Assembly: GCA_017601395.1 (NCBI GenBank)
Contig: JAFNIQ010000001.1
Location: 16,542 to 80,541 of the forward strand
Length of the DNA: 64,000 bases
Source: Candidatus Brockarchaeota archaeon
Lineage (GTDB): Archaea > Thermoproteota > EX4484-205 > JAAOZP01
Direction of reading: 5' to 3'
The translations under genes and the position numbers were made by a program. The notes below the pieces were generated by a model. It ran no database searches and was not told the DNA's origin. It was given only the letters and a program-made list of their open reading frames with translations. Shown one piece after another: positions 2,812-62,199 of this stretch. Positions within the stretch are counted from its first letter, which is position 1, and each line of letters opens with the position of its first letter.

Positions 2812-3819
2812 TTACGCTTTTATCCTTTTGTTGAAAACCTTTGCGAAGCCTATCTTCATAAGAGCCGGTAGCCCTATTAGATCAGTCGCTGTATAGAAGA
2901 ACCGGTAGAGAAGCGATACGGACACGCCGTGCGAGAGAGGAGTGCCGAACAACTGTAGCAATGCTGCTAAAACGCCTTCCTGCACACCTAGGCCAGCTAG
3001 GGTTAAAGGTAGGTAGGTGAAGCTTGAAACAAGCGAGTATATGAAGATGAATAAACCAGGGTTCAACTCAACGCCGACGGAGAGGGAGAGAAAGTAGAGG
3101 GCCATCGAGTCCAGGATGGATGTTGACAACATTGATAAGACAACCGGCCCCAGGGCCCTCTTTGCTTTAATACTCTCCCTCTGGAATTTTTCAATTCTCT
3201 CCAAGTAAGGGTTTAGAACTCTACTTACAATTCTGAACGAGCTTAGCCTTAACGCGAGCTTCCTAGGCTTATCGGACCAGAGGAGTGCTGCGAAGCATAA
3301 GGCACTGGTTGCCAGAATAACGGCACTTAAAACAACAATCAACCTGACTCCTGAAATTGATTCAATAGGGCCTATTAAATATGCTACTGAAACTATTGTC
3401 AGTAAAGCCCTTATGAGGAAGTCAATCATTCCAGATAGGACTGTCGCCACCAAGCATGCTTCAAAAGGTGTTTCGCCGAGCGCCTCCATTACGAATGGGG
3501 TTATGAAGTATCCTGCACGTCCAGGTGTAAGGTCACTCGCCAACTGGCCTGCAAAATTTGCTTGGATACAGCTTGACAGACTTGCTTTGTATTTTAGTGA
3601 TGAAAGGATGAAGAAGAAGGATAACGCGATCATCGTTGAAGCCGCTATTATCAGGGAAGAGCCGATTATGACGTATTTGGTATCGGCTTTAAGCAGGGCT
3701 TTAAAAGTCTCTTCAAAATTTGCCTGCTGAAGCAGGATTATCAGGATGAGTAGGCCTAGTGCTAACTGGCAGATTACTAAAACCCCCTTCTTGGCGCCTT
3801 CCTCATATCTCATGCTCAT
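2812..3819 (-). CDS. Flippase-like polytopic membrane protein (UPF0104 / lysyl-phosphatidylglycerol-synthase TM-region family)
   Basis: About 8 TM helices. The LTLAGLGVQEGVLAALLQLFG segment is typical of the UPF0104 family. Confidence 0.5.
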   Translation of the reverse strand: MSMRYEEGAKKGVLVICQLALGLLILIILLQQANFEETFKALLKADTKYVIIGSSLIIAASTMIALSFFFILSSLKYKASLSSCIQANFAGQLASDLTPGRAGYFITPFVMEALGETPFEACLVATVLSGMIDFLIRALLTIVSVAYLIGPIESISGVRLIVVLSAVILATSALCFAALLWSDKPRKLALRLSSFRIVSRVLNPYLERIEKFQRESIKAKRALGPVVLSMLSTSILDSMALYFLSLSVGVELNPGLFIFIYSLVSSFTYLPLTLAGLGVQEGVLAALLQLFGTPLSHGVSVSLLYRFFYTATDLIGLPALMKIGFAKVFNKRIKA

Positions 3820-12545: not shown

Positions 12546-13906
12546 TGGAGGGTTTAGCGGAGCAACTTGAGGAAATCGTAGGCAGGGAGGCGGTGGTAAG
12601 CGGTAAAGACAAGATTGAGAGCTACTTGTCCGATGAAACGTGCTTTCCGGTGAGACCGTCTGCCGTATCAGACTGCATACTGGTTAAGCCTGCTAACAGC
12701 ACCGAGGTTTCAAGGATCCTTAGGCTGGCTAACGAAAAAAGGATTCCAGTATACCCTAGGGGAGGAGGGACAGGCCTTGTGGGAGGGGCTGTGCCGACTA
12801 GAAGCGGGATAATCGTTTCCCTGGAGAGGATGAATCGGATTGAAGTGGACGGAGAAAACCTGATGGCTGTCGCAGAAGCCGGGGCAACGCTGGGGGAGCT
12901 CCTGAAGGCTGCTGAGGAAGCAGGCCTCTCTTTCCCGCCGCATCCCGGGGACGAGGGTGCTCAGATAGGCGGCCTCGTAGCCTGCAACGCTGGCGGGGCT
13001 AGGGCTGTTAAGCATGGTGTTATGAGGAGCTTCGTAAAGGGCTTGGAGGTTGTACTGCCCACTGGGGAAATCGTAACTTTCGGCGGTAGGCTTCTGAAAG
13101 ACAACATGGGCTACAGCTTGATGCACTTGATCATAGGAAGCGAGGGCACACTTGGAATTATAACTAGGGTTGTTTTAAGGCTTAACCCTAAAGCGCCATA
13201 CTCCTTCACCCTGCTGCTTCCTTTCAACTCGAGGCATGACGCGCTTAATACTGTCCCGAGAATACTGCGCTCTGGGGTGACTCCCCTTGCTCTAGAGTAT
13301 GTCGAGAAGGAGTTGATGGAGCTGTCTGCTGAACACTTGGGCGAGAAATGGGTTTTCGAGGGAAAAGTCTTTCTCATAGCAATACTGGCGGGGGAGGAGA
13401 ACGTTGTCTACTCTGAGGCTGAAAAGCTTTCCCAGCTATGCGTTGAGAACAACGGGCTTGAGCCTTCAGTTGCAGAGAGAAGGGACGAGCAGGAATCCAT
13501 TTTGAGAATAAGAAGCAATATTTACACTGCTCTTAAACGCGACTCCATGGATATTCTTGACACGACGGTTCCACCATCTGCGATTGGAAAGCTGGCGGAC
13601 GCTATCGACACTATTGCCGAGAAATATGGCGCGCACATTCCTGTTTACGGTCATGCTGCAGATGGAAATGTTCACTCTCACATAATGAAGAAGGATGCTG
13701 AGAAATACGAGTTGATTAAGAGAGAAATATATGAGACTACGATAGGCCTTGGAGGAACCATCAGCGGTGAACACGGTGTTGGGAAAATCCGGGTGAAGGA
13801 GCTTTACCGGTTCACGCATCCGAAGAAAATCGAGCTTATGAAGGGGGTTAAAAGGCTTTTCGACCCGAATAATATTCTAAATCCTTCCACGGTGCTAGAG
13901 GTTTAG
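12545..13906 (+). CDS. FAD-binding oxidase (GlcD / D-lactate dehydrogenase-like, FAD_binding_4 plus FAD-oxidase C-terminal domain)
   Basis: RIPVYPRGGGTGLVGGAVP FAD-binding motif. C-terminal HAADGNVH…GGTISGEHGVG block. The ATG at 12545 overlaps the etfA TGA (TGATG). The ORF track begins 3 nt earlier at a TTG. Confidence 0.8.
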   Translation: MEGLAEQLEEIVGREAVVSGKDKIESYLSDETCFPVRPSAVSDCILVKPANSTEVSRILRLANEKRIPVYPRGGGTGLVGGAVPTRSGIIVSLERMNRIEVDGENLMAVAEAGATLGELLKAAEEAGLSFPPHPGDEGAQIGGLVACNAGGARAVKHGVMRSFVKGLEVVLPTGEIVTFGGRLLKDNMGYSLMHLIIGSEGTLGIITRVVLRLNPKAPYSFTLLLPFNSRHDALNTVPRILRSGVTPLALEYVEKELMELSAEHLGEKWVFEGKVFLIAILAGEENVVYSEAEKLSQLCVENNGLEPSVAERRDEQESILRIRSNIYTALKRDSMDILDTTVPPSAIGKLADAIDTIAEKYGAHIPVYGHAADGNVHSHIMKKDAEKYELIKREIYETTIGLGGTISGEHGVGKIRVKELYRFTHPKKIELMKGVKRLFDPNNILNPSTVLEV

Positions 13907-14051
13907 GAATTAACGGGTGAAAAACAGTAAACATAAGAGTTAAACCTTCCGTGAAGGATGTGGTATCCCTATAAGATGCAAGTCTTTATATACTGCCGGT
14001 TTGTCAGAGAAGGATTTGAAATGATAAAAACTGTTTGGTGCGTCACATTCT

Positions 14052-14309
14052 ATGTTTCCGAAACTTGAAGAGTGTAAACATGTTGCTTCAAAATCGCCGT
14101 CAGTGGAGTTTCTTGTTGAAAACGTGGAAAGGTTTTATGAGGAGTTAAAAGGTAAGGGTGTAAAGTTTATTAGGGAGTTGCATGAGGAGCCGTGGGGAGG
14201 GAAGCAAGCGACTTTTACAGACCCTGATGGAAACATTTTAGAGATAGTGCAGATCGATTGGGAGAAATACTTTAACGTATCTGCCCAAGGAGCGAAAAAG
14301 AGGGCATAA
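14052..14309 (+). CDS. VOC-family (glyoxalase/bleomycin-resistance-like) domain protein, single C-terminal module only; probably truncated or frameshifted
   Basis: The 85-aa ORF ends …WGGKQATFTDPDGNILEIVQ, typical of VOC C-terminal strands. A 16-codon ORF in another frame (14021-14068, MIKTVWCVTFYVSET*) resembles a VOC N-terminal strand. Confidence 0.45.
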   Translation: MFPKLEECKHVASKSPSVEFLVENVERFYEELKGKGVKFIRELHEEPWGGKQATFTDPDGNILEIVQIDWEKYFNVSAQGAKKRA

Positions 14310-14399
14310 GTATTAGCGTGTGCTACTATGAAGGCATGTAAAACCTCTCAGGGCCTTCCATAATGGATCTGTAACGCTACCCGCCCTAAAACAATACCG

Positions 14400-15539
14400 C
14401 TACGCCTCGAACAAGATTCCTCCTATGAGGGTCATTCGAACCCTGAAGTCTTCACCTATTACAACCATGTCAGCATCCTTCCCCTCTTCTATGCTTCCTT
14501 TACACTCTTCAACACCGAGCAATCTAGCCGGGTTATACGAGGCCACTTTGGCTACTGAGCTTAAAGGAACACCTGTAAACTTGGCGAAGCGTCTAGCCAG
14601 CTCGCTCATGCCTGCTGATGTTCCGATCAAAGTGCCGTCCACGTATCTCGCCGTCCCGTTTGAAGAGATGAATTCAATGCCATTGTAAACATACTTGCCG
14701 TCAGGTAAACCCGTTGACCTCACCCCGTCTGTTATCAATACGATTCGATCTTCACCTAAAATCCTCGTTGCGAATCTTACCATGGATGGGTGAATGTGAA
14801 CACCGTCGGATATTATCTGCACGGTCACATCCTTAGACTCGAATATGGCTATCGCCGGTCCTGGAGCCCTATGGTGAATAGGCGGCATAGTGTTGAAGAA
14901 ATGAGTAACATGCTTAACGCCAATTCTTATGGCTTTCAGGGTCTGCTCATAGTCTGCTGAAGAATGGCCGAAGGATACTATCACCCTGTTTTCAAGCAGA
15001 AGGCTTATAACCTGCTCCGAGCCCTCAAGCTCCGGAGCCAGAGTCATCATCTTCAGCCAGCCCTTACACTTATCCATTATCTCAGACAAGACTTTAACCG
15101 AAGGCTCGCAGACCGAGGATTCTTGGATCATTCCTCTTTTCTCCCTGGAGATGAACGGGCCTTCCAAATGGAATCCTAGAAACCTAGCTCCGTTTAAGCC
15201 CTTCGAGAACCCGTTCAACGCAGCCTCTAAATGCTTGTTTTCAAAACCCGGCTTATAGACGGTGGTTGCAAGAAAACCTGTGACTCCAAACTTGACGCAT
15301 GTTTCAGATATAGTGCTAACTGCTTCCTCATCCTCGTCGAGAATGTCAGCTCCTCCTGCACCCTGTATGTGAACATCTATAAAGCCTGGGAACAAAAAGT
15401 CACCTTCCAGATCAATACTCTCGCCCTCCATGTAGCCGTAGAGTGGTTTACCGATCTTCCTTATCCTCCCACGGTCGATTAGAACGTCTCCAAACGTTTC
15501 CCCCCAAGGGTTAACTATCCTCGCGTTTTTAATCAGCAT
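14400..15539 (-). CDS. nagA: N-acetylglucosamine-6-phosphate deacetylase (amidohydrolase superfamily)
   Basis: GFIDVHIQGAGGAD metal-binding motif plus downstream conserved His/Asp positions. Length 379 aa. Confidence 0.8.
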   Translation of the reverse strand: MLIKNARIVNPWGETFGDVLIDRGRIRKIGKPLYGYMEGESIDLEGDFLFPGFIDVHIQGAGGADILDEDEEAVSTISETCVKFGVTGFLATTVYKPGFENKHLEAALNGFSKGLNGARFLGFHLEGPFISREKRGMIQESSVCEPSVKVLSEIMDKCKGWLKMMTLAPELEGSEQVISLLLENRVIVSFGHSSADYEQTLKAIRIGVKHVTHFFNTMPPIHHRAPGPAIAIFESKDVTVQIISDGVHIHPSMVRFATRILGEDRIVLITDGVRSTGLPDGKYVYNGIEFISSNGTARYVDGTLIGTSAGMSELARRFAKFTGVPLSSVAKVASYNPARLLGVEECKGSIEEGKDADMVVIGEDFRVRMTLIGGILFEA

Positions 15540-15811
15540 TCAACACTGGTTTAAGCCCATTGAGCTATTAAATCTTCCTCCTTTGGAAACAACAGGTCTC
15601 TAAAAACCGAACAGACTTTTTGAAATCGAGCACTTCCACCTCAATCTCCTGCCTCGTGTTTTTAAACCTCATCCAGTAATTGTAACCGCCTTGAAGCTCA
15701 AGATTCCCAACTGTTTTCAACCTGTTTTCCAAAAGCCTTCCGTAGGGTTTAAGCCCCATTTTTCATCCTCACAAACATGTATTTTTCATCGTCAATGTTC
15801 TTATGATTATT

Positions 15812-15827
15812 AAAAAAATTTATATTT
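15812..15827 (+). promoter_or_regulatory. Putative archaeal BRE/TATA element (aaaaaaatttatattt) about 27-30 nt upstream of the small ORF start at 15854
   Basis: Purine-rich run followed by TTTATATT. The spacing to the ATG is consistent with a leaderless or very short-leader transcript. Confidence 0.35.
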
Positions 15828-15853
15828 GAGCTCAAACATAAAATAAATCCGAA

Positions 15854-16009
15854 ATGAAATTCGTACCTCTCCAAAAAGGAAGTACACCAGAGCCTGGTAC
15901 AAGGCCGCTCACATGTTGTGGTAGTAATTTCCATTTTGGAACGTATTGCACGCCAGTAAAGGGGCCGACCCAGATTATCAGCGATATTAAGGCGCTTAGG
16001 GAAGACTAA
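15854..16009 (+). CDS. Unannotated 51-aa small ORF, candidate RiPP precursor peptide (MKFVPLQKGSTPEPGTRPLTCCGSNFHFGTYCTPVKGPTQIISDIKALRED)
   Basis: ATG at 15854. The TAA at 16007-16009 overlaps the ATG (16009-16011) of the radical SAM/SPASM gene as TAATG. Three Cys sit in a Gly/Thr/Ser-rich stretch. A TATA-like box lies upstream. The ORF is below the length cutoff of the ORF track. Confidence 0.4.
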   Translation: MKFVPLQKGSTPEPGTRPLTCCGSNFHFGTYCTPVKGPTQIISDIKALRED

Positions 16010-17340
16010 TGAAAGTGAAAGCTTCTAGGTTTAATTTTTTTATACCTTTCTCAGATGGTTATTTAATATACAACACGTTTAATGGTGCACTGGCTTTTAT
16101 TGATGCGGAACTTAAGAACTTAGAGGCCAGCGACTTTCAAAAATTGCCTCCCAATCTTTTAAAAAGTCTCTTAGATCAGGGATTCTTAATCGAGGAGTTC
16201 GTCGATGAATTGCTAATGTACGAGTATTATTTCAACCTAGCAAGATACTTAACAAGTTCTGTAGGCTTTCTTCTATTAACTACGTATGATTGCAACTTTA
16301 ATTGTGTTTATTGTTATGAGAGACCTGTTATTTCCAAAGTTTATATGGATCTTGATGTCGCAAGAAGAACCGCTACTCATATTACCAAATTTACTGATGG
16401 GAAAATGGCTAAACATGTTGAGATAACTTTGTATGGTGGTGAACCCTTGCTGAATCTCAACATAGCTCAGGTAGTGTTAGATGAAGTTTTGAAATGGTGT
16501 CAGAAAAATGGTGTATCGTTGGATATCAATCTCGTAACAAATGGCTCACTTATAACTCCTGAAGTTGTTAATAGTCTTAAAGCATACAATCTTAACTCCG
16601 TTCAAGTGACGATGGATGGTCCAAAGGAAATTCACGATAAAAGAAGACCCTTTCGAAACGGCATGGGTTCTTTTGATGTAATAATGTCAAATGTTCTTAA
16701 TTGTATAGATAGTCTGCCCATAACTATAAGGGTCAATGTTGACAAGGGAAACGTCTCTTATTTCCCTGCTTTTTTGGATTTACTAGACGATTTGGGTCTA
16801 AAAAATAAAGCGGGATTATGGATTGCAATGCTTCATGGATTAGATGACTATTGTAAAACTATGAAATTTAATGATAAAGAAGCAAACGAAATACGTTACA
16901 ATATGTGGAGGCTTGCTCTCAAAAGAGGCTTCAAATTCGGATGGTATCCCTCAAGATTCCATTTATGCGATGCGATGAGGGACAACGCTCAGATAATCGA
17001 TCCTAAGGGCAATATATATAAATGTTGGAGTTTTGTAGGACTTGAAGAGTGTACTGTGGGTAAAATAGGAGAAGGAACTTACAAGCCTTATTTTTATGAA
17101 TTGTTAACTAGGAATCCTATAAGAGACGCAAAATGCAGCAGATGTAATGTACTGCCATACTGTAATGGGGGGTGCCTATATGAAGCTTACTGCCATACTG
17201 GGAATAGATCTAATTTTGTATGCGGTGTTCTTCAGGGAAAGGAAGCGTTAGAGAGCATGCTTACTCTACATGTTATTAGTATGTACAAGGAAAAACTTGT
17301 AAAGAGTGAAGTAAGCGTAGGCAATGAAATCTATGATTAA
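16009..17340 (+). CDS. Radical SAM enzyme with C-terminal SPASM domain (peptide-modifying maturase family; anSME-like)
   Basis: CNFNCVYCYERP (CxxxCxxC) near residue 95. C-terminal …YKCWSF…ECTVGK…CSRCNVLPYCNGGCLYEAY auxiliary-cluster (SPASM) cysteines. Confidence 0.85.
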   Translation: MKVKASRFNFFIPFSDGYLIYNTFNGALAFIDAELKNLEASDFQKLPPNLLKSLLDQGFLIEEFVDELLMYEYYFNLARYLTSSVGFLLLTTYDCNFNCVYCYERPVISKVYMDLDVARRTATHITKFTDGKMAKHVEITLYGGEPLLNLNIAQVVLDEVLKWCQKNGVSLDINLVTNGSLITPEVVNSLKAYNLNSVQVTMDGPKEIHDKRRPFRNGMGSFDVIMSNVLNCIDSLPITIRVNVDKGNVSYFPAFLDLLDDLGLKNKAGLWIAMLHGLDDYCKTMKFNDKEANEIRYNMWRLALKRGFKFGWYPSRFHLCDAMRDNAQIIDPKGNIYKCWSFVGLEECTVGKIGEGTYKPYFYELLTRNPIRDAKCSRCNVLPYCNGGCLYEAYCHTGNRSNFVCGVLQGKEALESMLTLHVISMYKEKLVKSEVSVGNEIYD

Positions 17341-18412
17341 TGCCATTGTTACAGAAGAGCTTACAAGAATTTTCAAAACCTATGTCCTAAAGGGTTACTA
17401 TGAAAGCGGTTGGGAACATGGAGGGGTTTTTCTTTACAATATATGGAAAAGACTTAGAGCTGAGAAGACAATGGTTCAAGCTCTAAAGGGAATTAACCTC
17501 AGAGTTAGAGAGGGAGAGTTCGTTTTCCTCGTAGGTCCGAACGGCTCCGGTAAGACTACGTTGATAAGGATATTAGCAACTTTTCTCCTACCTACCAGCG
17601 GAAAGGCCTTCGTAGCGGGATATGATGTTACGCATCAGAAAAGAGAAGTCTTGAAAAACATTAGTTACATACCCTCTCTTCTCGCAGGGGCTGCTTGGGC
17701 CCATGTAGGGCTTACAGTGGGAGAAAACCTAAAAATAATGGCAAGGCTCTTCGGCTACTCGGAGAAAACATTAGACGAAGCCTTACGGACGTTGGAAATA
17801 GAGGATCTTAAGAATAGAGTCTTCGGATCCCTTTCCACGGGCCAGCAAGCCCGGGTCGTTCTAGCTTTAGGCATGATCAAGAATGCTCCAATCTTCCTTC
17901 TAGATGAGCCAACGTTAGGTCTAAGCCCTGAAGCCGTGCGGATAGTCCTAGATTATTTAAAGTATCTAAATGAAAAGATGAAGGTTACAATTCTTTACGC
18001 CACTCATCACCTTATGGAGGCTCAGAAAATGGCTGATCGAGTGGTCTTCCTGAAAGACGGTACCATATTGGTCGATGGAGATCCAAAAAGCATAATTAGG
18101 AGCGTGGGAATTACAGAAACAATAATATTGGAGATTCATCATGCATACTTCGATATTGGCAAAGTCCTACATGAAATTGAGGACCGCTGTATATTTACCA
18201 ATGCCGAGTTATTGGAATCTGAAACGGGTGAATACGTCGTCAAGCTCGGTGTAAAGGATAGTGGGGAGGTTCTCCCCGAGATAATCCACAAGCTAGTGTC
18301 GAGAGGTTCAAGAATTAAGAATGTGAAAGTGTTGGAACCCTCTTTAGAAGATGCGTTTATGTATTATGCGAGGAGGGGTCCTGGGAGTGCGGAAATACAA
18401 GGAAATAGTTAG
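17324..18412 (+). CDS. ABC transporter ATP-binding protein
   Basis: Walker A GPNGSGKTT, signature LSTGQQARV, Walker B IFLLDEPT. The start overlaps the rSAM gene by 17 nt. Confidence 0.85.
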   Translation: MKSMINAIVTEELTRIFKTYVLKGYYESGWEHGGVFLYNIWKRLRAEKTMVQALKGINLRVREGEFVFLVGPNGSGKTTLIRILATFLLPTSGKAFVAGYDVTHQKREVLKNISYIPSLLAGAAWAHVGLTVGENLKIMARLFGYSEKTLDEALRTLEIEDLKNRVFGSLSTGQQARVVLALGMIKNAPIFLLDEPTLGLSPEAVRIVLDYLKYLNEKMKVTILYATHHLMEAQKMADRVVFLKDGTILVDGDPKSIIRSVGITETIILEIHHAYFDIGKVLHEIEDRCIFTNAELLESETGEYVVKLGVKDSGEVLPEIIHKLVSRGSRIKNVKVLEPSLEDAFMYYARRGPGSAEIQGNS

Positions 18413-19241
18413 GGTCAATCTCCGACATGTTCTCAGCTTCTACAAGGAGGAGGTGAGTGTAACTACTGCTTGGTGGGCTTGGAACATACCGTTTCAGCTT
18501 GCCAGTATCCTAATATCCTTACTCATCTATTACTATTATGCATTAGCGTTTGGAGGCTATAGCCCTCTTTTTGGAGAAAACTTCATGACATTCATAATAG
18601 TGGGGCTCATGATGAACACTTATCTAGATATTTCTATGGATGCTTATTACTCCGCGATCAGCGCGCTCTATATGGGCAAAGAGGGTATAGGTGGACTAGC
18701 TATAAGTAGAATGGACTACCTTAGTCTGGCAGGAATTTCGCCTTATGTATTTATCTTTGCGAGGATCAGCTATTATTACATAACGCAGACTATCGTATTC
18801 CTTTTGTATTTTCTGGCTGGACAGTTTTTCGGCGTTAGTATCCCTTTTTTAGAGAATCTCGGTTTGGTCGTGATAGCCATGATGCTTGGTATAATTGCTT
18901 GCAGTGGCATAGGGCTGATATCGGCTAGCATGTATTGGCTTGCTGGTAGCTATAGGGGTGTTGAACCAATTAGATGGACTATAAGGATGCTTGTACCGCT
19001 TCTCTCCGGGATATTTGTACCTCTTCATGTTTTACCAGAATCGATCAGAGCAATAAGCATATTGCTTCCTCAGACTCATACATTACAAGCAGTCAGAGCA
19101 TCTCTTGCAGGAGCTACCTTATCTCAGATACTTCTGAACTTAGAAGCACTGATAATATTCTCGGTAGTACTCGTACCGGTCGGATTATTACTGCTTAAAT
19201 ACTCACTTAATCTGGAGAGAAAAAGAGGCACGATCTACTAA
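18351..19241 (+). CDS. ABC-2 type transporter permease (6 TM). The true start is probably an internal Met or GTG a few codons downstream.
   Basis: Six hydrophobic helices and an ABC-2-like length. It overlaps the preceding ATPase gene. Confidence 0.7.
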   Translation: MRLCIMRGGVLGVRKYKEIVRVNLRHVLSFYKEEVSVTTAWWAWNIPFQLASILISLLIYYYYALAFGGYSPLFGENFMTFIIVGLMMNTYLDISMDAYYSAISALYMGKEGIGGLAISRMDYLSLAGISPYVFIFARISYYYITQTIVFLLYFLAGQFFGVSIPFLENLGLVVIAMMLGIIACSGIGLISASMYWLAGSYRGVEPIRWTIRMLVPLLSGIFVPLHVLPESIRAISILLPQTHTLQAVRASLAGATLSQILLNLEALIIFSVVLVPVGLLLLKYSLNLERKRGTIY

Positions 19242-19366
19242 ATAATGGCTTAGCCCGCGCATGTCTCCAACGATTTCCTCTCTGGTTAACTCGAATCTAT
19301 GCATGCCGGTGGGGCATACGAGAGGTCAAATATTTAGGTTTTTAGAAACCGATTAATTGACCTTAA

Positions 19367-20728
19367 TCATACTTGTGAGACAAGTTTTCTTGCTCTTTCA
19401 GCAAGTTCCGCGCGTTTCCACATTATATCCTTCGGCAGGGTTAATGAGGCAGCGGTGAGAACCACGGCGCATATCGACCAGGTTATGGTTATTATCACCA
19501 CCATTCCCCATTCCAATCCTATGATGTCTGCCAAGTAGCCAGTAATAAGCGGGGCAAAAGCGGAGCCTGCGTTTTCAACGAATACCTGTACTGATTGAAT
19601 GGTGCTCCTGACCTCGGGAAGAGCTATGTCTTGAAGGGAAGCTGTTACAGCAGGGCCCGCCATAGGAATGAAGAAGCCGGTAAGCGCTCCGAACGCGGCG
19701 AAGAGCTCCACGCCACCCTTCGTCAAAAGCGTCAGGTCGAAAAAGACCAGGCCCACGGCCACCGATATCCCGGCGAAAATCGCCCTCCCTTTCAAAGTCT
19801 TCCTGAACGCCCAGTCGCTCGTTATTCCTGCAACAACGTTACCGGCAACCATCGCTGCAATCGCAACAAGCATTATGAACAGCTGTGAATCCGGGTCGAA
19901 CCCCCTCTCATAAGTCATGTAGGCAAAAAGCCAATAGGTTATTATCTGCCAAGGGAAGACTCCGAAGAAGCCCTGCGTAAAAAGGAAGATCATCGATTTT
20001 CTCCTCAGCACTTCGATCAACGACTCCTTTCTAAAAGTATCTTTCAACTTATCCTTCACAGCAAGCAGTTCCGGCTCAGTGGAACCCCTCGGCTTGTCTC
20101 TTAACGTGGCCACTATTAGAACTGCCAATAGCAAGCCGGGCACCCCAGTTATCATGAAGGCGCTGCGCCACCCTAGGGTGCTGCCCATGATGGTTCCAAT
20201 AATGGTTCCAAGTAGGGCCCCGATTGCAGCGGAAGTATTCAGTATGCCGAAAGCTGTAGACCTTTTCTCAGGTGGGAAATGGTCGCCAATGAACGAGACT
20301 ATCCCGCTAGTCGCCTCATTATCAATCCCGGTTAAGGCCCTGGTAAAGGCCAGCTCCACGAAATTCCTTGAGAAGGTTGAGAACACGGTTGTTCCCCCCC
20401 AGATAGCGCTGGCTAAAGCGGCTAGGTGGGGTCTAGCGTACTTGTCGAAAAGGTAGCCCCAGAGGGGCATGAAAATCACTGCAACTACTGCGGCGCCAGT
20501 CTGTATGGCGCCCAGCTGAGTATATGAGAGAGTAAACTCATCCTTTATCGAGGGAAGGAGCGGCGAGATTAGAAACTTATCCGAATTATGGAGCACCATG
20601 AATAGGAAGAACACGAAGACCGCGTACCAAGCTTCGCGCGATATACTGTAGGATGGAATCCTAGCCATCCTGTGCCCACCCCTACCTAAGGTCCCTCCAG
20701 CCAACCAGAGTGAAACCCAGTTCCTCAA
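19367..20728 (-). CDS. MFS transporter. The start is probably at the internal Met 60 nt downstream (about 20668).
   Basis: 12 predicted TM helices. The motif G-x-L-x-D-K-Y-A-R-P after TM2 is typical of the major facilitator superfamily. Confidence 0.75.
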   Translation of the reverse strand: MRNWVSLWLAGGTLGRGGHRMARIPSYSISREAWYAVFVFFLFMVLHNSDKFLISPLLPSIKDEFTLSYTQLGAIQTGAAVVAVIFMPLWGYLFDKYARPHLAALASAIWGGTTVFSTFSRNFVELAFTRALTGIDNEATSGIVSFIGDHFPPEKRSTAFGILNTSAAIGALLGTIIGTIMGSTLGWRSAFMITGVPGLLLAVLIVATLRDKPRGSTEPELLAVKDKLKDTFRKESLIEVLRRKSMIFLFTQGFFGVFPWQIITYWLFAYMTYERGFDPDSQLFIMLVAIAAMVAGNVVAGITSDWAFRKTLKGRAIFAGISVAVGLVFFDLTLLTKGGVELFAAFGALTGFFIPMAGPAVTASLQDIALPEVRSTIQSVQVFVENAGSAFAPLITGYLADIIGLEWGMVVIITITWSICAVVLTAASLTLPKDIMWKRAELAERARKLVSQV

Positions 20729-21557
20729 CTATTTGTCGAGCCTCCTTAGAGGTGACCAGCTGGTAATCCAGATACCTGTCTACGTGGCTCGTCACGCCAT
20801 GGCTAGGTATTATTGCCTTCATCTCCTCTTCGGGAAGGCCAAGGTGTACTATTATCTGAGTCAATGTTCCAGGCTTAATATCCTTCAAAACATCTCTAAA
20901 CCATTTTATTCTTTCCTGCAGGTCGGAGCCGAATGTAATGCCGATGAAATTATCAAGCATAGACGTACCGGATTTAAGAATCCTGCTTACAAGATCATCT
21001 GATATAGTTATGCCCATCTGCTTAGCCACTTCGAACGCGCTGTCAGTGGGTTTAATCAACATCGGGATAAGGCCGTTATCCAAGGCAACCTTCACATAGG
21101 TCTCTAAGAGATCCGGCCTGAAGAAAACAGTGCCCATGTGAGTATCAAGATGAGAGGGCTGTAGACCAAGGTCGAAAGCCCTTTTCACCTGCACCCTCAG
21201 CTCAGCCTCAACCTCCTTCCGCGAGGCTTTTGCAGCATCCTTCGCCTCCTTATGCAGGTATCCCTGCTCATCTAAGAGGGTTGGAACCTCGCTCCTTGAA
21301 CTAACCGGGCCCCACCTGTAGAGCCTCCACTCGCTCGTCAGCGTCGAATGTATCCCGTAGTCGTAACCCGGGTTCTCCTTGAAGAACTCAACCGCTTCGA
21401 GTATCCATGGGCATGGCATCATAAGGCTGCAGCTTGAAACCACGCCGTTTTGAAACCCTAGGAAGGTTGCCTTATTCTCTGCGTGACACATGCCGACATC
21501 GTCTGCATGGATAATCAGAAGCTTGTCATTCCGGTCGAAGCCGCCAGTCAACGGCAT
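20682..21557 (-). CDS. YdjC/ChbG-family carbohydrate deacetylase
   Basis: The N-terminal LLIIHADDVGMCHAENKA motif, with its metal-binding Asp and His, is characteristic of YdjC-like deacetylases. Confidence 0.75.
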   Translation of the reverse strand: MPLTGGFDRNDKLLIIHADDVGMCHAENKATFLGFQNGVVSSCSLMMPCPWILEAVEFFKENPGYDYGIHSTLTSEWRLYRWGPVSSRSEVPTLLDEQGYLHKEAKDAAKASRKEVEAELRVQVKRAFDLGLQPSHLDTHMGTVFFRPDLLETYVKVALDNGLIPMLIKPTDSAFEVAKQMGITISDDLVSRILKSGTSMLDNFIGITFGSDLQERIKWFRDVLKDIKPGTLTQIIVHLGLPEEEMKAIIPSHGVTSHVDRYLDYQLVTSKEARQIVEELGFTLVGWRDLR

Positions 21558-21783
21558 ACTTGTGAGCTAGAAATGCTAAAATATAAATTTTTAAAAAACA
21601 AGGCAGTTTCTCGCCATGTATGCAACATATTACTGCATCCTCAATAAACTCCTCATCTTAAGATAGTGGAATAATCCTTAAGTATTAACAGTCTCGCTGC
21701 ACTATCTTTTAGAGACAGGTCGACTTTCCGAAGCGTTTTAGCTTAAATGACTAAAATATTCGCTTTTTCAAGACGCGCAAAAA

Positions 21784-23055
21784 TTACGACTCAGCGTATT
21801 GCTTGATTCTGATTCGATACGTCAGTAAAGCTAAAGCCAAGAGTATAGCAGTCGAGGAAAATATCTTAACAGAGTCTAGAATCAGGGTCTCGGCAAAAGT
21901 TTCGAACACGAGTATCCTGCGGCTGGTCTCAATACTCCAGGCTGGGGGAAAGATTACAGCCAGCAATCTTACGGGTTGAGGCATCCATTCCAAGGGAAAC
22001 CAGATCCCGGTGGTAAAACTAAGAAGAAGGCCGAGGACGGTACCCATGCCTGAAGCACCTCTCACCGTTTTTGATAACAGTGAGACTAGGGCTCCGATGC
22101 TCATGCTCATCAGGGCTCCGCAGACCATGAAGGCGACAGCTAGAAGGTGTATCGGATTCAATGGGTCTAAAACGATGCGTGCCCCCACAGCTGGAGAGAT
22201 TCCTACAAGTATCAGTATCAATGCGGATATTAGTAGGGTCGTTAATTGAGATAGGAAGCTTCCAACTATAAACTCTCCTTCAGTAAGCGGGGTTGAGAAA
22301 AGCTTCCTAAGAGTCCCCCTCTCCTTCTCGGAGACTATGAGTATCGCGCCGCTGTTAAACCCGAAGTAGAGGAACATCATGCCTATTGCTCCAATCGTAT
22401 ACCAGCCCAGTGTTCTCACACGGTCTTCAAAGAACTCTGGAGATACGTGGTCAATAGTTAAGTCTAATGGTCGCATGATGCCTTGTACAGTAGCGTTAAA
22501 CCACCGTTTCTCCTCCTCTGAGACAGGCAACCATTTGATTATGTTCACTGCTTTTTCAACCCTCTTAAACGAGATTCCTTCAGAGAACCTTTCGAGAAAG
22601 CCTATTATTATTGAGGAAGATATTTGTGCAGACTCCGGGGTTCTTGAACCAACGTATGCGTGAAGCCTTGCTTTCTCAACCGGATTGATTACAGCGTAGC
22701 CTAATCCTTCAGGCACAACTATTACGCCGTCAAGCTCACCTCTCCTCAAAGCCCGTAACGCTTCCTCCTCAGATTGATAGGATTTCACGTTAAACAGCTT
22801 TGAATCGTTATACTCTGCCTCCTCCAAGAACTTAATTAAAGACGAGCCGTTAAGCGGCGTTTGAGAGCTGTCTAAGTTTACAATCCCAAGGTTAAGCACT
22901 ATTGTTCCCCCGTCACCGGTCGGCGGCACGAAAATGTATGCAGTCATGAAGATCCATATCAGCGGCCATGCTACGAGCCAGAAAACAAACGTCTTATCTC
23001 TAATCATCAGCTTTAAATCACGAATGATGAATGAAACCATTGGTTTTATTCTCAT
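21784..23055 (-). CDS. ABC-2 family permease with a large extracytoplasmic loop (YhgE/Pip-like topology)
   Basis: N-terminal TM, an extracytoplasmic domain of about 170 aa, then 5-6 C-terminal TM helices. It is translationally coupled to the upstream ATPase with a 4-nt overlap. Confidence 0.65.
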   Translation of the reverse strand: MRIKPMVSFIIRDLKLMIRDKTFVFWLVAWPLIWIFMTAYIFVPPTGDGGTIVLNLGIVNLDSSQTPLNGSSLIKFLEEAEYNDSKLFNVKSYQSEEEALRALRRGELDGVIVVPEGLGYAVINPVEKARLHAYVGSRTPESAQISSSIIIGFLERFSEGISFKRVEKAVNIIKWLPVSEEEKRWFNATVQGIMRPLDLTIDHVSPEFFEDRVRTLGWYTIGAIGMMFLYFGFNSGAILIVSEKERGTLRKLFSTPLTEGEFIVGSFLSQLTTLLISALILILVGISPAVGARIVLDPLNPIHLLAVAFMVCGALMSMSIGALVSLLSKTVRGASGMGTVLGLLLSFTTGIWFPLEWMPQPVRLLAVIFPPAWSIETSRRILVFETFAETLILDSVKIFSSTAILLALALLTYRIRIKQYAES

Positions 23056-24005
23056 TCCTCCAGCCTCCTTCCGGTTAGCTTTAGAAAAACATCTTCAAGC
23101 GTAGGCTTGACTACGCTTACACTCAACACCCTTACTCCTTTCTCACCGAGGATTAGTATGGTCTTAGGCAGATCCTCGTCGGGGTCGTCAGTATGAACAC
23201 GTACTTCGCCGTTACAACTATAAACGTTTCCCCAACGGCTCTTTAAAACAGCAGAAGCATTCTCGACTTGTTCAGGAACGGGCTTAATCACTAGCACAGC
23301 TGGCGGGGCATAGAGTTTTTTAAGCTCCTCAGCACTGCCCTCCGCGATTAACTTACCCTTGTCTATTATTGCAACCCTGTTTGCAAGTCCTTCTGCCTCG
23401 TCAACAAGATGAGTCGCCATGAGGATGGTAACTCTGTTTGAAACTTTTTTGCGTAACAATTCTAGGACGCTTCTGCGCATAGCCGGGTCTAAAGCTGTAG
23501 TCGGCTCATCAAGTATCAGCAGCTCAGCCTCAATGGCTAGGGACAGTATGATTGAAGCGAGTTTCATCTGCCCCGTTGACAGTTTGGAAGAGAGCTTGGT
23601 TGCCAACTCCTGAACACCCAATTTTTCAAAAAGCCACTTAGCCTCCTGGCGGACAGTATTCCTGTTAAAACCGTATAACGATGCGTAGAAATCAACATTC
23701 TCCATTACTGTTAGCCAAGGATATAGTGGTGGAGTCGCTGGAAGATAGGAGATTTTTAAACGCGTTGACGGATCGAAAGGACTACCCCCAAGAACCCTAA
23801 TGCTTCCAGACGTCGGCTTCATAACGCCAGCTATAATGTTGAACAACGTTGACTTGCCTGCACCATTCGGCCCTATGAAAACGTATACCTCGCTAGGCCT
23901 AACCGTGAAGCTGACCGCGTCCAGCGCGACGACACTGTTATATGATTTAGAAATTCCTTGAGCAGCAACCACTTCCTGCCCCATGATTCTATCACATTGT
24001 TTCAA
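23052..24005 (-). CDS. ABC transporter ATP-binding protein
   Basis: Walker A GPNGAGKSTLFN, signature LSTGQMKLA, Walker B LILDEPT. Confidence 0.85.
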   Translation of the reverse strand: MKQCDRIMGQEVVAAQGISKSYNSVVALDAVSFTVRPSEVYVFIGPNGAGKSTLFNIIAGVMKPTSGSIRVLGGSPFDPSTRLKISYLPATPPLYPWLTVMENVDFYASLYGFNRNTVRQEAKWLFEKLGVQELATKLSSKLSTGQMKLASIILSLAIEAELLILDEPTTALDPAMRRSVLELLRKKVSNRVTILMATHLVDEAEGLANRVAIIDKGKLIAEGSAEELKKLYAPPAVLVIKPVPEQVENASAVLKSRWGNVYSCNGEVRVHTDDPDEDLPKTILILGEKGVRVLSVSVVKPTLEDVFLKLTGRRLEE

Positions 24006-24490
24006 TCGCTATCTTTAAGTCTTATTCTTAATCTATTATCCTAAAAGATTAGGCTCATATTGCATAATGTGCAAGCCATATGGAAATCTATATCGGGTTG
24101 TTTAATCTGGAACCCATGTATGTGCCTAAACGTACGTTCAGACTACTTGAGCTAAAAATTTCGAAAATATGATTAAGGCTATTGGGTTTGAGGAGCAGGA
24201 TAGTTTTCCCATATGGGACTACGTAGACGATTTGCAAGTTAGGGATTATTTCACCCCCAGGTGGATAAGGATTTGCTTAACGCTCAAGGTTAGAACGACC
24301 TAGGTTTTGATTTGTGCAGGGTTCAGCCCTAGCTATAACTCGGAAGAAAACTGGATTGAAGAGGCTAAACGACTTATAAAGTGGCTTCCCAAATGGAGGT
24401 CATTTCATCGGTTCCTCTAACGAGATGCGCCCGCTCCACTCCTTGAAAACATGTTTCTAAACTGTCGAGCAATCGGTATCCTGTTATCAA

Positions 24491-43920: not shown

Positions 43921-45051
43921 TTAGAATATGTCTTCCGCGTAGGCTACACCTGCCGCATGTATGCCCCATTCTCGATATTTTAAGCATGTGGCTGAGTAAT
44001 AAGCCGTATAGATGGTTCCGTCATCAAGCTGGACACTACTTGGGTATCCGCAGTCAGCGTCTGTCGCATAAGAGACTAAGGCGGCTCTCCTGTTAAACAT
44101 CCATGATCGGCCGCCGTCGAGGCTTATCACTGCATGAACCCCGTAAGGCACCCTCCGGTGTCCAAAGGTTAGCAAAACCTTCCCGCTCTTAAGGTAACAA
44201 AGGTCCCCGGGGTGTTCACCGCCAACAGTCACCTGTTTAGGCTCAGACCATGTGTAACCCATGTCTCGAGAGCGACTGATGGCAACGCATTCGCCGCCAC
44301 CCTGAGCATGAGGTCCGCGGAGGGCTGCCAACAAGTCTCCATCGGGTAATTGTAGAAGAGCAGTTTCATTATATCCTTTAGCGACGATGGTTAAATCCTT
44401 CCATGTGAAACCATTGTCTTCGGAGCGTAGAATATAGCTGGTCTCTATCGAGCCTTCTACAGTATATTCTTGAGAGTAAACAGACATAAGAATAGTTCCA
44501 TCATCTGTCTGAAGCATTCTCCCATAGGGTGAAACCGCCCCTTTAAACGGAAACTCCAGCGGCTCGGGCTTACTCCACTCCCTACCACCGTTGGTCGACC
44601 TCGTTACGAACATTTGCCACCTCATCCCATTCCTCTTCCACAACCCATTCTCATAACCCCAGACTCTTACAAAGGCAACCAGCAGAGTACCGTCCTTCAA
44701 TTGACATAAGGCCGGATTCCTATCATCAGTCTGAGAAACGGTTACAATTCTTGGCATTGTCCATGTCTTACCCCCGTCTTTAGATAACGAGAGCTCTAAG
44801 CGGCCTCGTTGACCAACATGGTAATCCCCCATGCGGAAGACAACTGCTAGGTTTCCGTCACGGAGTTTAGTCAAAACCGGGAAATATCCACCCATAGGAG
44901 TTATAAGATATCTTCTCACCCGCTTGAGGGAACCAACCATCGCCTCATCGCAAAACTGCATTCCATACTTGAACTCCTCATCGGCTTTCATGTTTTTCCA
45001 CGGCCAACCGTTTTTCCGTATGCGGGCGTTCTTATTAATTTTGATGTTCAT
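43921..45051 (-). CDS. BNR/Asp-box repeat beta-propeller protein (sialidase/exo-alpha-sialidase-like glycosidase fold)
   Basis: Five Asp-box motifs (SKDGGKTW, STNGGREW, SEDNGFTW, SRDMGYTW, SLDGGRSW) spaced about 60 aa apart. Confidence 0.7.
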   Translation of the reverse strand: MNIKINKNARIRKNGWPWKNMKADEEFKYGMQFCDEAMVGSLKRVRRYLITPMGGYFPVLTKLRDGNLAVVFRMGDYHVGQRGRLELSLSKDGGKTWTMPRIVTVSQTDDRNPALCQLKDGTLLVAFVRVWGYENGLWKRNGMRWQMFVTRSTNGGREWSKPEPLEFPFKGAVSPYGRMLQTDDGTILMSVYSQEYTVEGSIETSYILRSEDNGFTWKDLTIVAKGYNETALLQLPDGDLLAALRGPHAQGGGECVAISRSRDMGYTWSEPKQVTVGGEHPGDLCYLKSGKVLLTFGHRRVPYGVHAVISLDGGRSWMFNRRAALVSYATDADCGYPSSVQLDDGTIYTAYYSATCLKYREWGIHAAGVAYAEDIF

Positions 45052-61499: not shown

Positions 61500-62199
61500 T
61501 TTTCCTCCTCATTAAAAGTATTATTTAAAGACTCTGGGCGTTACTACGCAACTCTTTCCCCCATCTTGTTTCACAATAAACCTGCCTGAACTAGTCTTCT
61601 CCTTGATAAAGATGAGGAGTTCGCTATGCTGTGGCTGGGAGACTAGGGTTATCTGAAATCTTAAAGAGGCTTGATAGGCCTGAGGAAAAACTAGGTTAGG
61701 CGTGGGAGAATCAGAATAAGCTTTGGGAAGAGGTTAGGAGCATAAGGAGCGTGATGCGATACGTGAGAGCCGAGGTTAAGAGCTTCGGAAGAGCTGTTGT
61801 AAGGACTTTAGAGGACTATACAATGGCATTCGTGGAAATTATCTTGGAAGAAAGGGGTTATCCTAGGGAAAAAATAAGGGGGGAGAAAGATGTGGGGAAG
61901 TTACGACTTACGTAGAGAGTTAGGAGAAAGCAATAGATGAGATAGGGAAGGTGTCAAGGAGAATAAACCTTGTGCAGAGAATGTTTGGAAGAAAAGTAGA
62001 GCACGCCTTCCTTGCCGTGGGGAACGTCTCGAAGGATGCTCTAGAAAAGCTTGAGGAGGAAGCCGGAAGAAACGGAATTGAGCTCATCTTTGGAAGAACG
62101 ATTGGAACGCAAGAACAATCATAGGGTTCTCGACACAATACTTGAGCTTTCTGATTAGAATATCTTGATATTTTTGTAATGCTTTAGTAATCGATGTCT

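What the first reader, a model, noticed from the sequence alone, without database searches (positions are those of the whole stretch)
15540..19366. Compositional island: the rSAM/ABC cassette is markedly more AT-rich than its flanks
The flanking genes (nagA at 14400-15539 and the MFS gene at 19367-20728) read at roughly 50% GC or higher. The interval between them is visibly AT-rich, with runs such as ttaatttttttatacctttctcagatggttatttaatatacaac and heavy use of AGA/AGG, ATA and TTA codons. This suggests horizontal acquisition of the cassette. The upstream 470-nt spacer (15540-16008) is especially AT-rich and holds the putative promoter.
Basis: seen in the sequence. Interest (0 to 1): 0.55.

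Follow-up and report, generated by a model that had tools for sequence, protein, structure and literature searches.

The report
Acquired archaeal peptide-modification gene cassette
A 3.5-kb AT-rich block in this Brockarchaeota genome is a self-contained, horizontally acquired cassette for making and exporting a modified cysteine-rich peptide; it landed inside, and destroyed, an acetyltransferase gene that all closer relatives keep intact.

Summary
The AT-rich interval is real. 15540-19366 is 40.2% GC against 47.2% for the window, the lowest stretch of its size in 64 kb. The rSAM gene is 36% GC, with GC3 33% against 53+-4%.

The horizontal-acquisition reading is supported. Ten related Brockarchaeota-lineage genomes have ydjC-MFS-nagA collinear and none has the cassette. 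In the closest relative (flanks 95-97% identical) an intact 358-aa AAC(3)-like acetyltransferase gene lies between MFS and nagA. In the window only its first 14 codons (19263-19304) and a frameshifted 3' remnant (to about 15787) survive. The true insert is therefore about 15788-19262 (3475 nt), replacing 828 nt.

The "spacer" is not empty. It holds the pseudogene remnant, a 21%-GC promoter-like stretch, and an unannotated 51-aa precursor gene (15854-16009). That gene's leader (MExIxLxxG) and Cys-rich core recur upstream of every close rSAM homolog.

The cassette is precursor + CteB-like rSAM/SPASM maturase + ABC-2 exporter. Its relatives (<=51% identity) are in Thermofilum, Thermoprotei and Archaeoglobales MAGs, and stay at 37-40% GC whatever the host GC.

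Corrections: AGA/AGG and ATA use is host-wide, not diagnostic. There are no mobility genes, tRNA or target duplication. This is a clean example of a known kind of event.

The parts
14400..15539 (-). nagA (GlcNAc-6-phosphate deacetylase), native flank
   Evidence: TIGR00221 313 bits, above its cut-off of 226. 93% aa identity to L014. dN/dS 0.14 but dS 0.23, higher than the 0.06-0.10 of more distant genes.
15540..15787 (-). Acetyltransferase-nagA intergenic region plus the decayed 3' remnant of the disrupted AAC(3)-like N-acetyltransferase gene; 'orf63' (15568-15759) is an accidental frame in it
   Evidence: tblastn with L014's 358-aa protein matches only residues 312-356 at window 15735-15601. 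Alignment shows at least 4 indels, including frameshifts, and 72% identity to L014, where L014 and L007 are 84% identical.
15788..19262 (+). Inserted cassette (3475 nt, about 40% GC); left junction uncertain by about 5-15 nt
   Evidence: blastn homology to L014 stops at window 19263 (L014 8907) and resumes at 15787 (L014 9736). The 828 nt L014:8908-9735 are replaced. Both junctions are identical in an independent Logan assembly contig.
15811..15826 (+). A-run plus TTTATATT: archaeal BRE/TATA-like element about 35 nt upstream of the precursor ATG (inferred promoter)
   Evidence: Read from the sequence. 15788-15853 is 21% GC. No Shine-Dalgarno-like motif. TATA-like elements occur at -34 to -58 in most homolog loci. 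Not tested experimentally.
15854..16009 (+). Unannotated 51-aa RiPP precursor peptide gene (leader MKFVPLQKG..., core ...CCGSNFHFGTYCTPV...); its stop overlaps the rSAM ATG (TAATG)
   Evidence: Homologous small ORFs lie directly upstream of the rSAM gene in 8 other loci. Alignment A4 gives the consensus MExIxLxxG...CCxxNxCGTYCxPV. No NCBIfam or Pfam hit. Absent from 1.84 billion predicted protein representatives.
16009..17340 (+). Radical SAM/SPASM peptide maturase (443 aa)
   Evidence: PF04055 and PF13353. Best NCBIfam matches are CefB at 291 bits and TIGR04463 at 239 bits, both below their cut-offs. CxxxCxxC (C95, C99, C102) and 7 SPASM Cys are invariant in 11 homologs. Model pLDDT 86.6; full-length match to CteB, TM 0.67-0.71. 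PDB profile hit to CteB, E=1e-35.
17324..18412 (+). ABC transporter ATP-binding protein, DrrA-like (362 aa)
   Evidence: PF00005 101 bits and a DrrA1-3_C tail. TIGR01188 208 bits, below its cut-off of 312. 44-52% identical to the gene at the same position in 5 homolog cassettes. Only about 31% identical to the native ABC ATPase of the lineage.
18387..19241 (+). ABC-2 type permease (284 aa; alternative start 18351)
   Evidence: Weak PF12698 and PF01061 hits. 47-60% identical to the permeases of 5 homolog cassettes. Start as called in the Logan contig.
19263..19304 (-). 5' stub (first 14 codons) of the disrupted acetyltransferase gene
   Evidence: ATGCATAGATTCGAG...GTTGGAGAC aligns with the start of the intact gene in L014, L007 and L011, then homology ends abruptly.
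19322..19344 (-). Orphaned promoter-like element of the acetyltransferase gene, now pointing into the 3' end of the cassette
   Evidence: Conserved block CTAAAA.C.TAAA..TATTTGA in relatives (A1). 78% reverse-complement match to the cassette's own BRE/TATA-like element (I3). Function inferred.
19367..20728 (-). MFS transporter, native flank
   Evidence: PF07690 170 bits. 98% aa identity to L014.
20682..21557 (-). YdjC-family carbohydrate deacetylase, native flank
   Evidence: PF04794 183 bits. 96% identity to L014.

Best explanation
A 3.5-kb, four-gene RiPP cassette was acquired horizontally and inserted in reverse orientation into a conserved GlcNAc/chitobiose gene cluster (ydjC-MFS-acetyltransferase-nagA) of a Candidatus Brockarchaeota genome. 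It replaced 828 nt of an AAC(3)-like N-acetyltransferase gene. The cassette brought its own AT-rich BRE/TATA-like promoter. It encodes (i) a 51-aa precursor with a conserved leader and a Cys-rich core, (ii) a CteB-like radical SAM/SPASM maturase and (iii) a DrrAB-like ABC-2 exporter. The maturase most likely binds the leader through an N-terminal RRE-like domain and cross-links core cysteines to other residues (thioether, sacti- or ranthipeptide-type). The exporter most likely secretes the product and/or protects the producer. Shown: the composition anomaly, absence from relatives, breakpoints and gene remnants, conservation of the four-gene unit and its precursor, and the cofactor-binding motifs and fold of the maturase. 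Inferred: promoter function, thioether chemistry, export or immunity role, and the donor, which is unsampled (nearest relatives <=51% identical, in AT-richer thermophilic archaea).
For: Composition. Absence from 10 syntenic relatives. The closest relative, L014 (flanks 95-97% nt identical), has an intact PF02522 acetyltransferase at the site. That gene is full length in 8 of 10 relatives; the window has only a stub and a frameshifted remnant. Junctions are reproduced in a second assembly. The precursor/rSAM/ABC unit recurs with unrelated neighbours. Cassette GC stays at 37-40% while host flanks range from 31 to 47%. Phyletic patchiness: the next-best homolog after the window's own protein is 51% identical, and named members are Thermofilum, Thermoprotei and Archaeoglobales. 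Maturase.
Against: There are no integrase or transposase genes, no tRNA, and no target-site or terminal repeats, so the insertion mechanism is unknown. GC-normalised dinucleotide signature is not atypical. Permease and precursor codon deviations are modest (z about -1.7). The donor is not identified. Chemistry is unproven: the second-closest solved structure, TigE, makes cyclopropylglycine rather than thioethers (PMC10878394). No RRE Pfam hit. No leader peptidase in the cassette.
Confidence: 0.85

Rival explanations
1. Two-step route, a refinement rather than a contradiction. The cassette entered the acetyltransferase gene in a different, unsampled Brockarchaeota strain. It then reached this genome as part of a larger allele (about 13.7-19.65 kb in window coordinates) by homologous recombination between relatives.
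For: Synonymous divergence from L014 is 2-3 times higher beside the insert (nagA dS 0.23, MFS 3' end 0.25, glyoxalase 0.16) than farther out (0.06-0.10), while nagA dN/dS stays at 0.14. The acetyltransferase remnant is more decayed (72% identity, at least 4 indels) than expected if disruption post-dated the W/L014 split. The absence of mobility genes fits recombination through flanking homology.
Against: The odd tract could equally belong to L014's history. There is only one close comparator and the genes are short, so dS estimates are noisy. No strain carrying the presumed donor allele was found.
Confidence: 0.35
2. The cassette is ancestral to the lineage and was lost from all sampled relatives. 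The AT-richness reflects functional or expression constraints on these genes, not foreign origin.
For: Homologous cassettes are all 37-40% GC, which could be read as an intrinsic property. Dinucleotide signature is not atypical.
Against: Loss cannot regenerate an intact 358-aa gene in 8 relatives from the stub and frameshifted remnant seen here. In AT-rich hosts the cassette is GC-richer than its flanks (39% against 33%, 38% against 31%), so it does not track any host. The nearest homolog is only 51% identical and lies in another phylum.
Confidence: 0.03
3. Assembly or binning artefact: a chimeric contig joins DNA of an AT-richer organism into the Brockarchaeota contig.
For: The source is a metagenome-assembled genome, and the composition shifts abruptly.
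Against: A separate Logan assembly contig (9540 nt) is 100% identical across both junctions. A chimera would need two joins that return exactly to the two ends of one gene. The remnant shows real pseudogene decay.
Confidence: 0.02
4. The cassette is a RiPP system, but the maturase does not make thioethers. It may install another modification on the core, such as a C-C or C-O cross-link, epimerisation or a cyclopropyl group, with the cysteines serving another purpose such as disulfides or metal binding.
For: SPASM maturases of similar fold have diverse chemistries: TigE cyclopropyl synthase TM 0.65, SuiB, ChlB (PMC10878394). All NCBIfam equivalog cut-offs are missed. Only one Cys column is invariant across all 9 precursors.
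Against: The best sequence and structure matches are to the thioether-forming CteB. The best HMM families (CefB, TIGR04463, geopeptide, Clo7bot, PapB) are Cys-rich-peptide maturases. All cores are Cys-rich, and 7 of 9 have a CC doublet.
Confidence: 0.2

Closest known systems
CteB / SCIFF-type ranthipeptide (thioether) maturase systems (PDB 5wgg, 5why)
   Same: Three-part architecture: N-terminal beta-sheet/helix leader-binding-like domain, radical SAM core with CxxxCxxC, and a SPASM domain with 7 Cys. Profile E=1e-35 and full-length structural match at TM about 0.7. A short Cys-rich precursor is encoded next to the maturase.
   Different: About 20% sequence identity. The SCIFF maturase model TIGR03974 scores 97 bits against a cut-off of 425. 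The precursor is unrelated to SCIFF and shorter in most members (31-51 aa). The system is archaeal and has a dedicated ABC-2 exporter.
NCBIfam CefB (NF038107, Cys-every-fifth) and TIGR04463 radical SAM/SPASM RiPP maturases
   Same: These are the best-scoring curated families over nearly the full length (residues 4-410; 291 and 239 bits). Both are maturases of small Cys-rich peptides.
   Different: Scores are less than half the curated cut-offs (600 and 525). The precursor core (CC-x9-C in the window; CCxxNCGTYC in relatives) does not have a Cys at every fifth residue. No precursor model matches.
Classical genomic islands (tRNA-linked, integrase-borne)
   Same: Atypical composition, absence from close relatives, disruption of a resident gene, and a self-contained accessory function.
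   Different: Only 3.5 kb. No integrase or transposase, tRNA, direct repeats or target duplication. It looks like a gene-replacement or illegitimate-recombination event, or allele exchange through flanking homology.
DrrAB-type ABC-2 exporters in natural-product and bacteriocin clusters
   Same: Separate ATPase with a DrrA C-terminal domain plus an ABC-2 membrane protein, translationally coupled downstream of the biosynthetic gene.
   Different: Below the TIGR01188 and TIGR01247 cut-offs. The substrate is unknown. One family member (L144) uses a fused ABC_membrane-ABC_tran exporter instead.

Membership tests
Horizontally acquired genomic island | Base and codon composition atypical for the host | tested here: met
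   40% against 47% GC; lowest 3.5-3.8 kb window in 64 kb. rSAM GC3 33% against 53+-4%, codon z -6.2. Below every 3.5-kb window in the 6 closest relatives. GC-normalised dinucleotide delta* is not atypical.
Horizontally acquired genomic island | Absent from the syntenic site in close relatives, with the polarity of the event resolved | tested here: met
   Present in 0 of 10 relatives. The target gene is intact in 8 of 10 and reduced to remnants in the window.
Horizontally acquired genomic island | Mobility signatures: integrase or transposase, tRNA target, flanking direct repeats | tested here: not met
   No tRNA in the window. No terminal or target-site repeats. The insert holds only four genes, none mobility-related. 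No close relatives on viral contigs.
Horizontally acquired genomic island | Patchy phyletic distribution of the cargo | tested here: met
   The next-best homolog is 51% identical. Named members are Thermofilum, Thermoprotei and Archaeoglobales MAGs. No formal phylogeny was made.
Radical SAM/SPASM RiPP maturase (sacti-/ranthipeptide synthase-like) | CxxxCxxC radical SAM cluster motif | tested here: met
   C95, C99 and C102 are invariant in 11 homologs. PF04055 57 bits, above its cut-off of 29.5.
Radical SAM/SPASM RiPP maturase (sacti-/ranthipeptide synthase-like) | SPASM domain with 7 conserved Cys for two auxiliary [4Fe-4S] clusters | tested here: met
   C320, C339, C376, C379, C385, C389 and C405 are invariant, including CxxCx5Cx3C. 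Full-length structural match to CteB.
Radical SAM/SPASM RiPP maturase (sacti-/ranthipeptide synthase-like) | N-terminal RiPP recognition element | tested here: inconclusive
   In the model, residues 1-80 form beta-strands plus helices, and the alignment to CteB covers the N-terminus. No PqqD/RRE Pfam hit. Domain-level superposition was not examined.
Radical SAM/SPASM RiPP maturase (sacti-/ranthipeptide synthase-like) | Adjacent short precursor with a conserved leader and a Cys-containing core | tested here: met
   9 loci, alignment A4.
Radical SAM/SPASM RiPP maturase (sacti-/ranthipeptide synthase-like) | Cys-S to carbon thioether cross-links in the product | not testable with these tools
   Requires expression and MS/NMR.
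NCBIfam CefB (NF038107) / TIGR04463 equivalogs | Score at or above the curated cut-off | tested here: not met
   291 against 600 bits, and 239 against 525 bits.
NCBIfam CefB (NF038107) / TIGR04463 equivalogs | Cognate precursor type (Cys at every fifth residue for Cef) | tested here: not met
   Core spacing is CC-x9-C, or CCxxxCxxxC in relatives. No precursor HMM hit at E<=10.
SCIFF system (TIGR03974 maturase) | Score at or above the curated cut-off | tested here: not met
   97 against 425 bits.
DrrAB-like ABC-2 exporter | ABC ATPase with DrrA C-terminal domain plus an ABC-2 permease | tested here: inconclusive
   PF00005 is met. DrrA1-3_C scores 21.5 against 27.4. TIGR01188 scores 208 against 312. 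The permease scores 24-27 bits, just under the Pfam cut-offs. Homolog permeases do carry PF01061.

The most novel reading that the evidence does not exclude
The cassette defines a previously undescribed, archaea-restricted RiPP family: leader MExIxLxxG, core with a Cys-Cys doublet and a GTYCxPV motif, and a maturase that falls outside all curated equivalogs. It travels between hyperthermophile-associated archaeal phyla as a minimal promoter-to-exporter module without any mobility genes. Its product could be an archaeocin-like antimicrobial or signal, with a cross-link pattern (possibly involving adjacent cysteines) not yet seen in characterised sacti- or ranthipeptides.
Probability: 0.4. Interest if true: 0.6.

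Novelty: new member of a known kind. Interest (0 to 1): 0.42.

Why it matters
Identified archaeal RiPP products are scarce; genome mining predicts many rSAM-type clusters in archaea (PMC12144867). This locus offers a compact four-gene target for heterologous expression, together with nine natural precursor variants. It is also a well-resolved horizontal transfer in an uncultured phylum: breakpoints known to about 5-15 nt, an intact 'before' state in a sister genome, and a datable pseudogene remnant. That makes it useful for studying how accessory modules enter archaeal genomes without mobile-element machinery. In practical terms, the precursor gene is missed by gene callers, and 'orf63' is mis-called as a gene.

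Tried and rejected
(1) Scan of metagenome contigs with the rSAM alignment: it returned only distant relatives (<=38% identity). It was useful only to show that 1 of 80 shares the ABC-2 pair.

(2) Viral contigs: nothing above 26% identity, so a virus-borne origin is not supported.

(3) Mean log synonymous-codon probability: not discriminating, because it is confounded by amino-acid composition. It was replaced by a composition-controlled z-test.

(4) Dinucleotide delta*: no signal.

(5) Search for terminal or target-site repeats and tRNAs: none found.

(6) Rfam scan of 15300-19600: no RNA family matched.

(7) Exhaustive phmmer search with the precursor: one marginal, implausible hit.

(8) orf63 and the 61-aa antisense ORF as real genes: rejected. 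There are no family hits, and orf63 is a frameshifted remnant.

(9) Relaxed selection on nagA as the cause of its higher divergence: rejected, because dN/dS is 0.14 and it is dS that is raised.

(10) The 27-nt inverted match (15581-15607 against 16313-16339): it does not extend further and remains unexplained.

Full report
OBSERVATION. The window averages 47.2% GC. The interval 15540-19366 is 40.2% GC. The rSAM gene is the extreme at 36.2% GC; the ABC ATPase is 43.3%, the permease 42.1% and the spacer 39.9%. The flanks are nagA 48.1% and MFS 51.5%. The quoted AT-rich run lies at about 16032-16075, inside the rSAM coding sequence.

Third-position GC is 32.6% for rSAM and 43.2% for the ATPase, against 53.2+-4.2% for 44 other long ORFs. 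A test that conditions on each gene's amino-acid composition gives z=-6.2 for rSAM (the most deviant gene in the window), -4.2 for the ATPase, and about -1.7 for the permease and precursor. The background is -0.2+-1.9. In the six closest related genomes (47-50% GC) no 3.5-kb window falls below 45.4%.

AGA+AGG are 81% of Arg codons inside and outside the island, and ATA is 53% against 48% of Ile codons. These are host habits; only the A/T-ending preference differs. The spacer as a whole is not especially AT-rich; only 15788-15853 is, at 21% GC. One caveat: the GC-normalised dinucleotide signature is not atypical (delta* 44.5 against 40.8+-14.6). The tetranucleotide correlation (0.57 against 0.83+-0.055) largely reflects base composition.

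GENE CONTENT. The + strand carries a radical SAM/SPASM protein (16009-17340), an ABC ATPase (17324-18412) and an ABC-2 permease (18387-19241). The flanks, all on the - strand, are nagA (TIGR00221, above cut-off), an MFS transporter and a YdjC-family deacetylase. Together they form a GlcNAc/chitobiose-type cluster. The rSAM protein is identical to a protein of a Candidatus Brockarchaeota MAG. The next-best homolog in 5.8 billion proteins is only 51% identical.

SYNTENY TEST. A scan of species-representative genomes with nagA returned ten Brockarchaeota-lineage loci with nagA at 74-93% identity. Mapping the window's proteins onto them shows ydjC-MFS-nagA collinear in all ten and no cassette in any. 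In the closest, L014 (CALIBN010000007; flanks 95-97% nt identical), nucleotide homology to the window stops at window 19263 and resumes at 15787. Between those points L014 has a 358-aa gene on the same strand as MFS and nagA, a Pfam Antibiotic_NAT (AAC(3)-like) acetyltransferase. That gene is full length in 8 of 10 relatives. The two most distant relatives lack it, with MFS and nagA 66 nt apart. One relative carries an extra thymidylate-synthase-like gene at the same junction.

In the window only two pieces of the acetyltransferase gene remain. The first 14 codons survive at 19263-19304, after which homology ends abruptly. The last ~50-60 codons survive at about 15601-15787. This remnant has at least four indels including frameshifts, and 72% identity to L014 where L014 and the more distant L007 are 84% identical. 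The 63-aa 'gene' called there in one assembly is an accidental frame in this remnant.

So about 3475 nt (15788-19262, about 40% GC) replaced 828 nt of a resident gene. The remnants fix the polarity: this is a gain here, not a loss in ten relatives. A separately assembled Logan contig is 100% identical over 14056-23595, spanning both junctions, which argues against a chimera.

WHAT THE SPACER HOLDS. Besides the remnant, 15854-16009 encodes a 51-aa peptide, MKFVPLQKGSTPEPGTRPLTCCGSNFHFGTYCTPVKGPTQIISDIKALRED, whose stop overlaps the rSAM ATG. Eight other loci carrying close rSAM homologs (41-51% identity) have a small ORF in the same position. These share the leader M-E-x-I-x-L-x-x-G and have a variable Cys-rich core, for example CECCNSNFHCGTYCSPV and RCCIINCGTYCSPV. 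A conserved leader with a variable core is the usual pattern of RiPP precursors (general knowledge of RiPP biosynthesis). No Pfam or NCBIfam model matches any of the six precursors tested, even at E<=10. An exhaustive phmmer search of 1.84 billion representatives found no credible relative. The family is therefore essentially uncalled in public proteomes.

Thirty-five nucleotides upstream of the ATG, inside the insert, lies an A-run followed by TTTATATT (15811-15826). There is no Shine-Dalgarno-like motif. Most homolog loci have TATA-like elements at -34 to -58. I infer a cassette-borne archaeal BRE/TATA promoter with a near-leaderless transcript; this is not tested.

THE CASSETTE AS A UNIT. 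In five homolog loci with enough sequence, the rSAM gene is followed by an ABC ATPase and an ABC-2 permease that are 44-52% and 47-60% identical to the window's. The neighbouring genes are unrelated. One member (L144) uses a fused ABC exporter instead. Among 80 more distant rSAM relatives (<=38% identity) only one shares the ABC-2 pair.

The cassettes sit at 37-40% GC whether the host flank is 31%, 33%, 40%, 42%, 46.5% or, here, 47.6%. They are GC-richer than AT-rich hosts and AT-richer than GC-rich ones. This is expected for a module that moves between hosts, and not for genes equilibrated with their genome. Named members come from Thermofilum, Thermoprotei and Archaeoglobales MAGs. No close relative is on a viral contig.

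MECHANISM OF FUNCTION (partly inferred). The maturase has the CxxxCxxC motif and seven SPASM cysteines, all invariant across 11 homologs. Its best curated families are maturases of small Cys-rich peptides (CefB 291 bits, TIGR04463 239, geopeptide 203, Clo7bot 202, PapB 148), all far below their cut-offs. The closest solved protein by sequence profile is CteB (E=1e-35). A confident model (pLDDT 86.6, pTM 0.86) matches CteB over its full length (TM 0.67-0.71), followed by TigE, SuiB, anSME, ChlB and SkfB.

I therefore propose the following. The N-terminal domain binds the leader. The enzyme cross-links core cysteines to acceptor carbons (thioether). The DrrAB-like ABC-2 transporter exports the product and/or protects the producer. 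The chemistry is not shown: TigE, nearly as close structurally, makes cyclopropylglycine (PMC10878394). No RRE model hits by sequence. The cassette has no leader peptidase.

MECHANISM OF ARRIVAL. There is no integrase or transposase, no tRNA, and no terminal or target-site repeat. Divergence from L014 is uneven. It is 96-98% identical over most of the flanks, but 87-95% over about 2 kb on the nagA side and 89% over the last 300 nt on the MFS side. nagA has dN/dS 0.14, so it is still constrained and has a conserved TTTAATAG element of its own upstream. Its dS is 0.23 and the MFS 3' end has dS 0.25, against 0.06-0.10 farther out.

Together with the advanced decay of the remnant, this suggests the insertion may have happened in another Brockarchaeota strain. 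The whole allele would then have moved here by homologous recombination. I give this refinement about 0.35, because the odd tract could belong to L014's history instead.

CONSEQUENCES FOR THE HOST LOCUS (inferred). The acetyltransferase is lost. Its conserved promoter-like element (19322-19344) now faces the 3' end of the cassette and could drive antisense transcription. nagA is separated from the upstream genes by 3.5 kb of opposite-strand DNA but remains under purifying selection.

COMPARISON WITH KNOWN SYSTEMS AND NOVELTY. This works like a CteB/PapB-type rSAM-SPASM RiPP system with an ABC-2 exporter. It is not a member of any curated equivalog: CefB, TIGR04463 and SCIFF cut-offs are all missed, and the precursor types do not match. 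As a genomic island it meets the compositional, syntenic and phyletic criteria but lacks the mobility hallmarks. Genome mining has already predicted many archaeal rSAM RiPP clusters, while identified archaeal RiPP products remain scarce (PMC12144867). I class it as a new member of a known kind. It has some added value: an unannotated precursor family, and an unusually well-resolved insertion event with a 'before' state in a sister genome.

VERDICT. The spacer is re-read as pseudogene remnant, promoter-like stretch and precursor gene. Interest is moderate.

Noticed in passing
window 62200-62604 (- strand); 62001-63000: A second, smaller AT-rich patch. A 133-aa ORF at 32% GC has GC3 35% where 57% is expected, codon z -4.3 and no Pfam hit. 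It may be another foreign gene.
   Followed up: partly
window 15581-15607 vs 16313-16339: A 27-nt inverted match (24/27) links the nagA-upstream intergenic region and the inside of the rSAM gene (codons Y103-K110). I estimate about 3e-5 such matches by chance in 4 kb. Relatives' homologous intergenic sequence matches far less. The match does not extend further. It may be a short conversion or templated-repair patch; unexplained.
   Followed up: partly
window ~13700-15790 and 19360-19650 vs L014: Synonymous divergence from the closest relative is 2-3 times higher right beside the insert (nagA dS 0.23, MFS 3' end 0.25) than farther away (0.06-0.10). This suggests a recombination tract with its own history.
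   Followed up: partly
L012:7914-8687; L018 and L019 around 9934-10001: The MFS-nagA junction is a variable spot in this lineage. One relative has an extra thymidylate-synthase-like gene there. Two lack the acetyltransferase entirely, with a 66-nt gap.
   Followed up: partly
window 43921-45051 (- strand): A BNR/sialidase-like gene has strongly deviant synonymous codon usage (z -5.9) despite normal GC.
   Followed up: no
window 15811-15833 vs 19322-19344: The cassette's BRE/TATA-like element and the orphaned promoter-like element of the disrupted acetyltransferase are 78% reverse-complementary over 23 nt. They now face each other across the cassette.
   Followed up: no
window 21784-24005 (- strand): A native ABC-2 transporter pair lies next to ydjC. 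It is conserved in relatives and only about 31% identical to the cassette's ATPase, so the cassette transporter is not a local duplicate.
   Followed up: partly
window 24153-24452 vs L014 ~3721-3772: A short stretch of low identity (78%) and an alignment break between the window and L014 sit in otherwise 97-99% identical sequence. This is another small variable spot.
   Followed up: no
L047:4860-4985 and downstream: A 35%-identical rSAM relative from a 34%-GC contig has a similar layout and what appear to be two successive ABC pairs. Its precursor is MRLLKLKAQSLIGGIGTSGCNTVGCFIYCSSTGCNQNQDVE. The leader-plus-Cys-core design therefore extends beyond the close family.
   Followed up: partly
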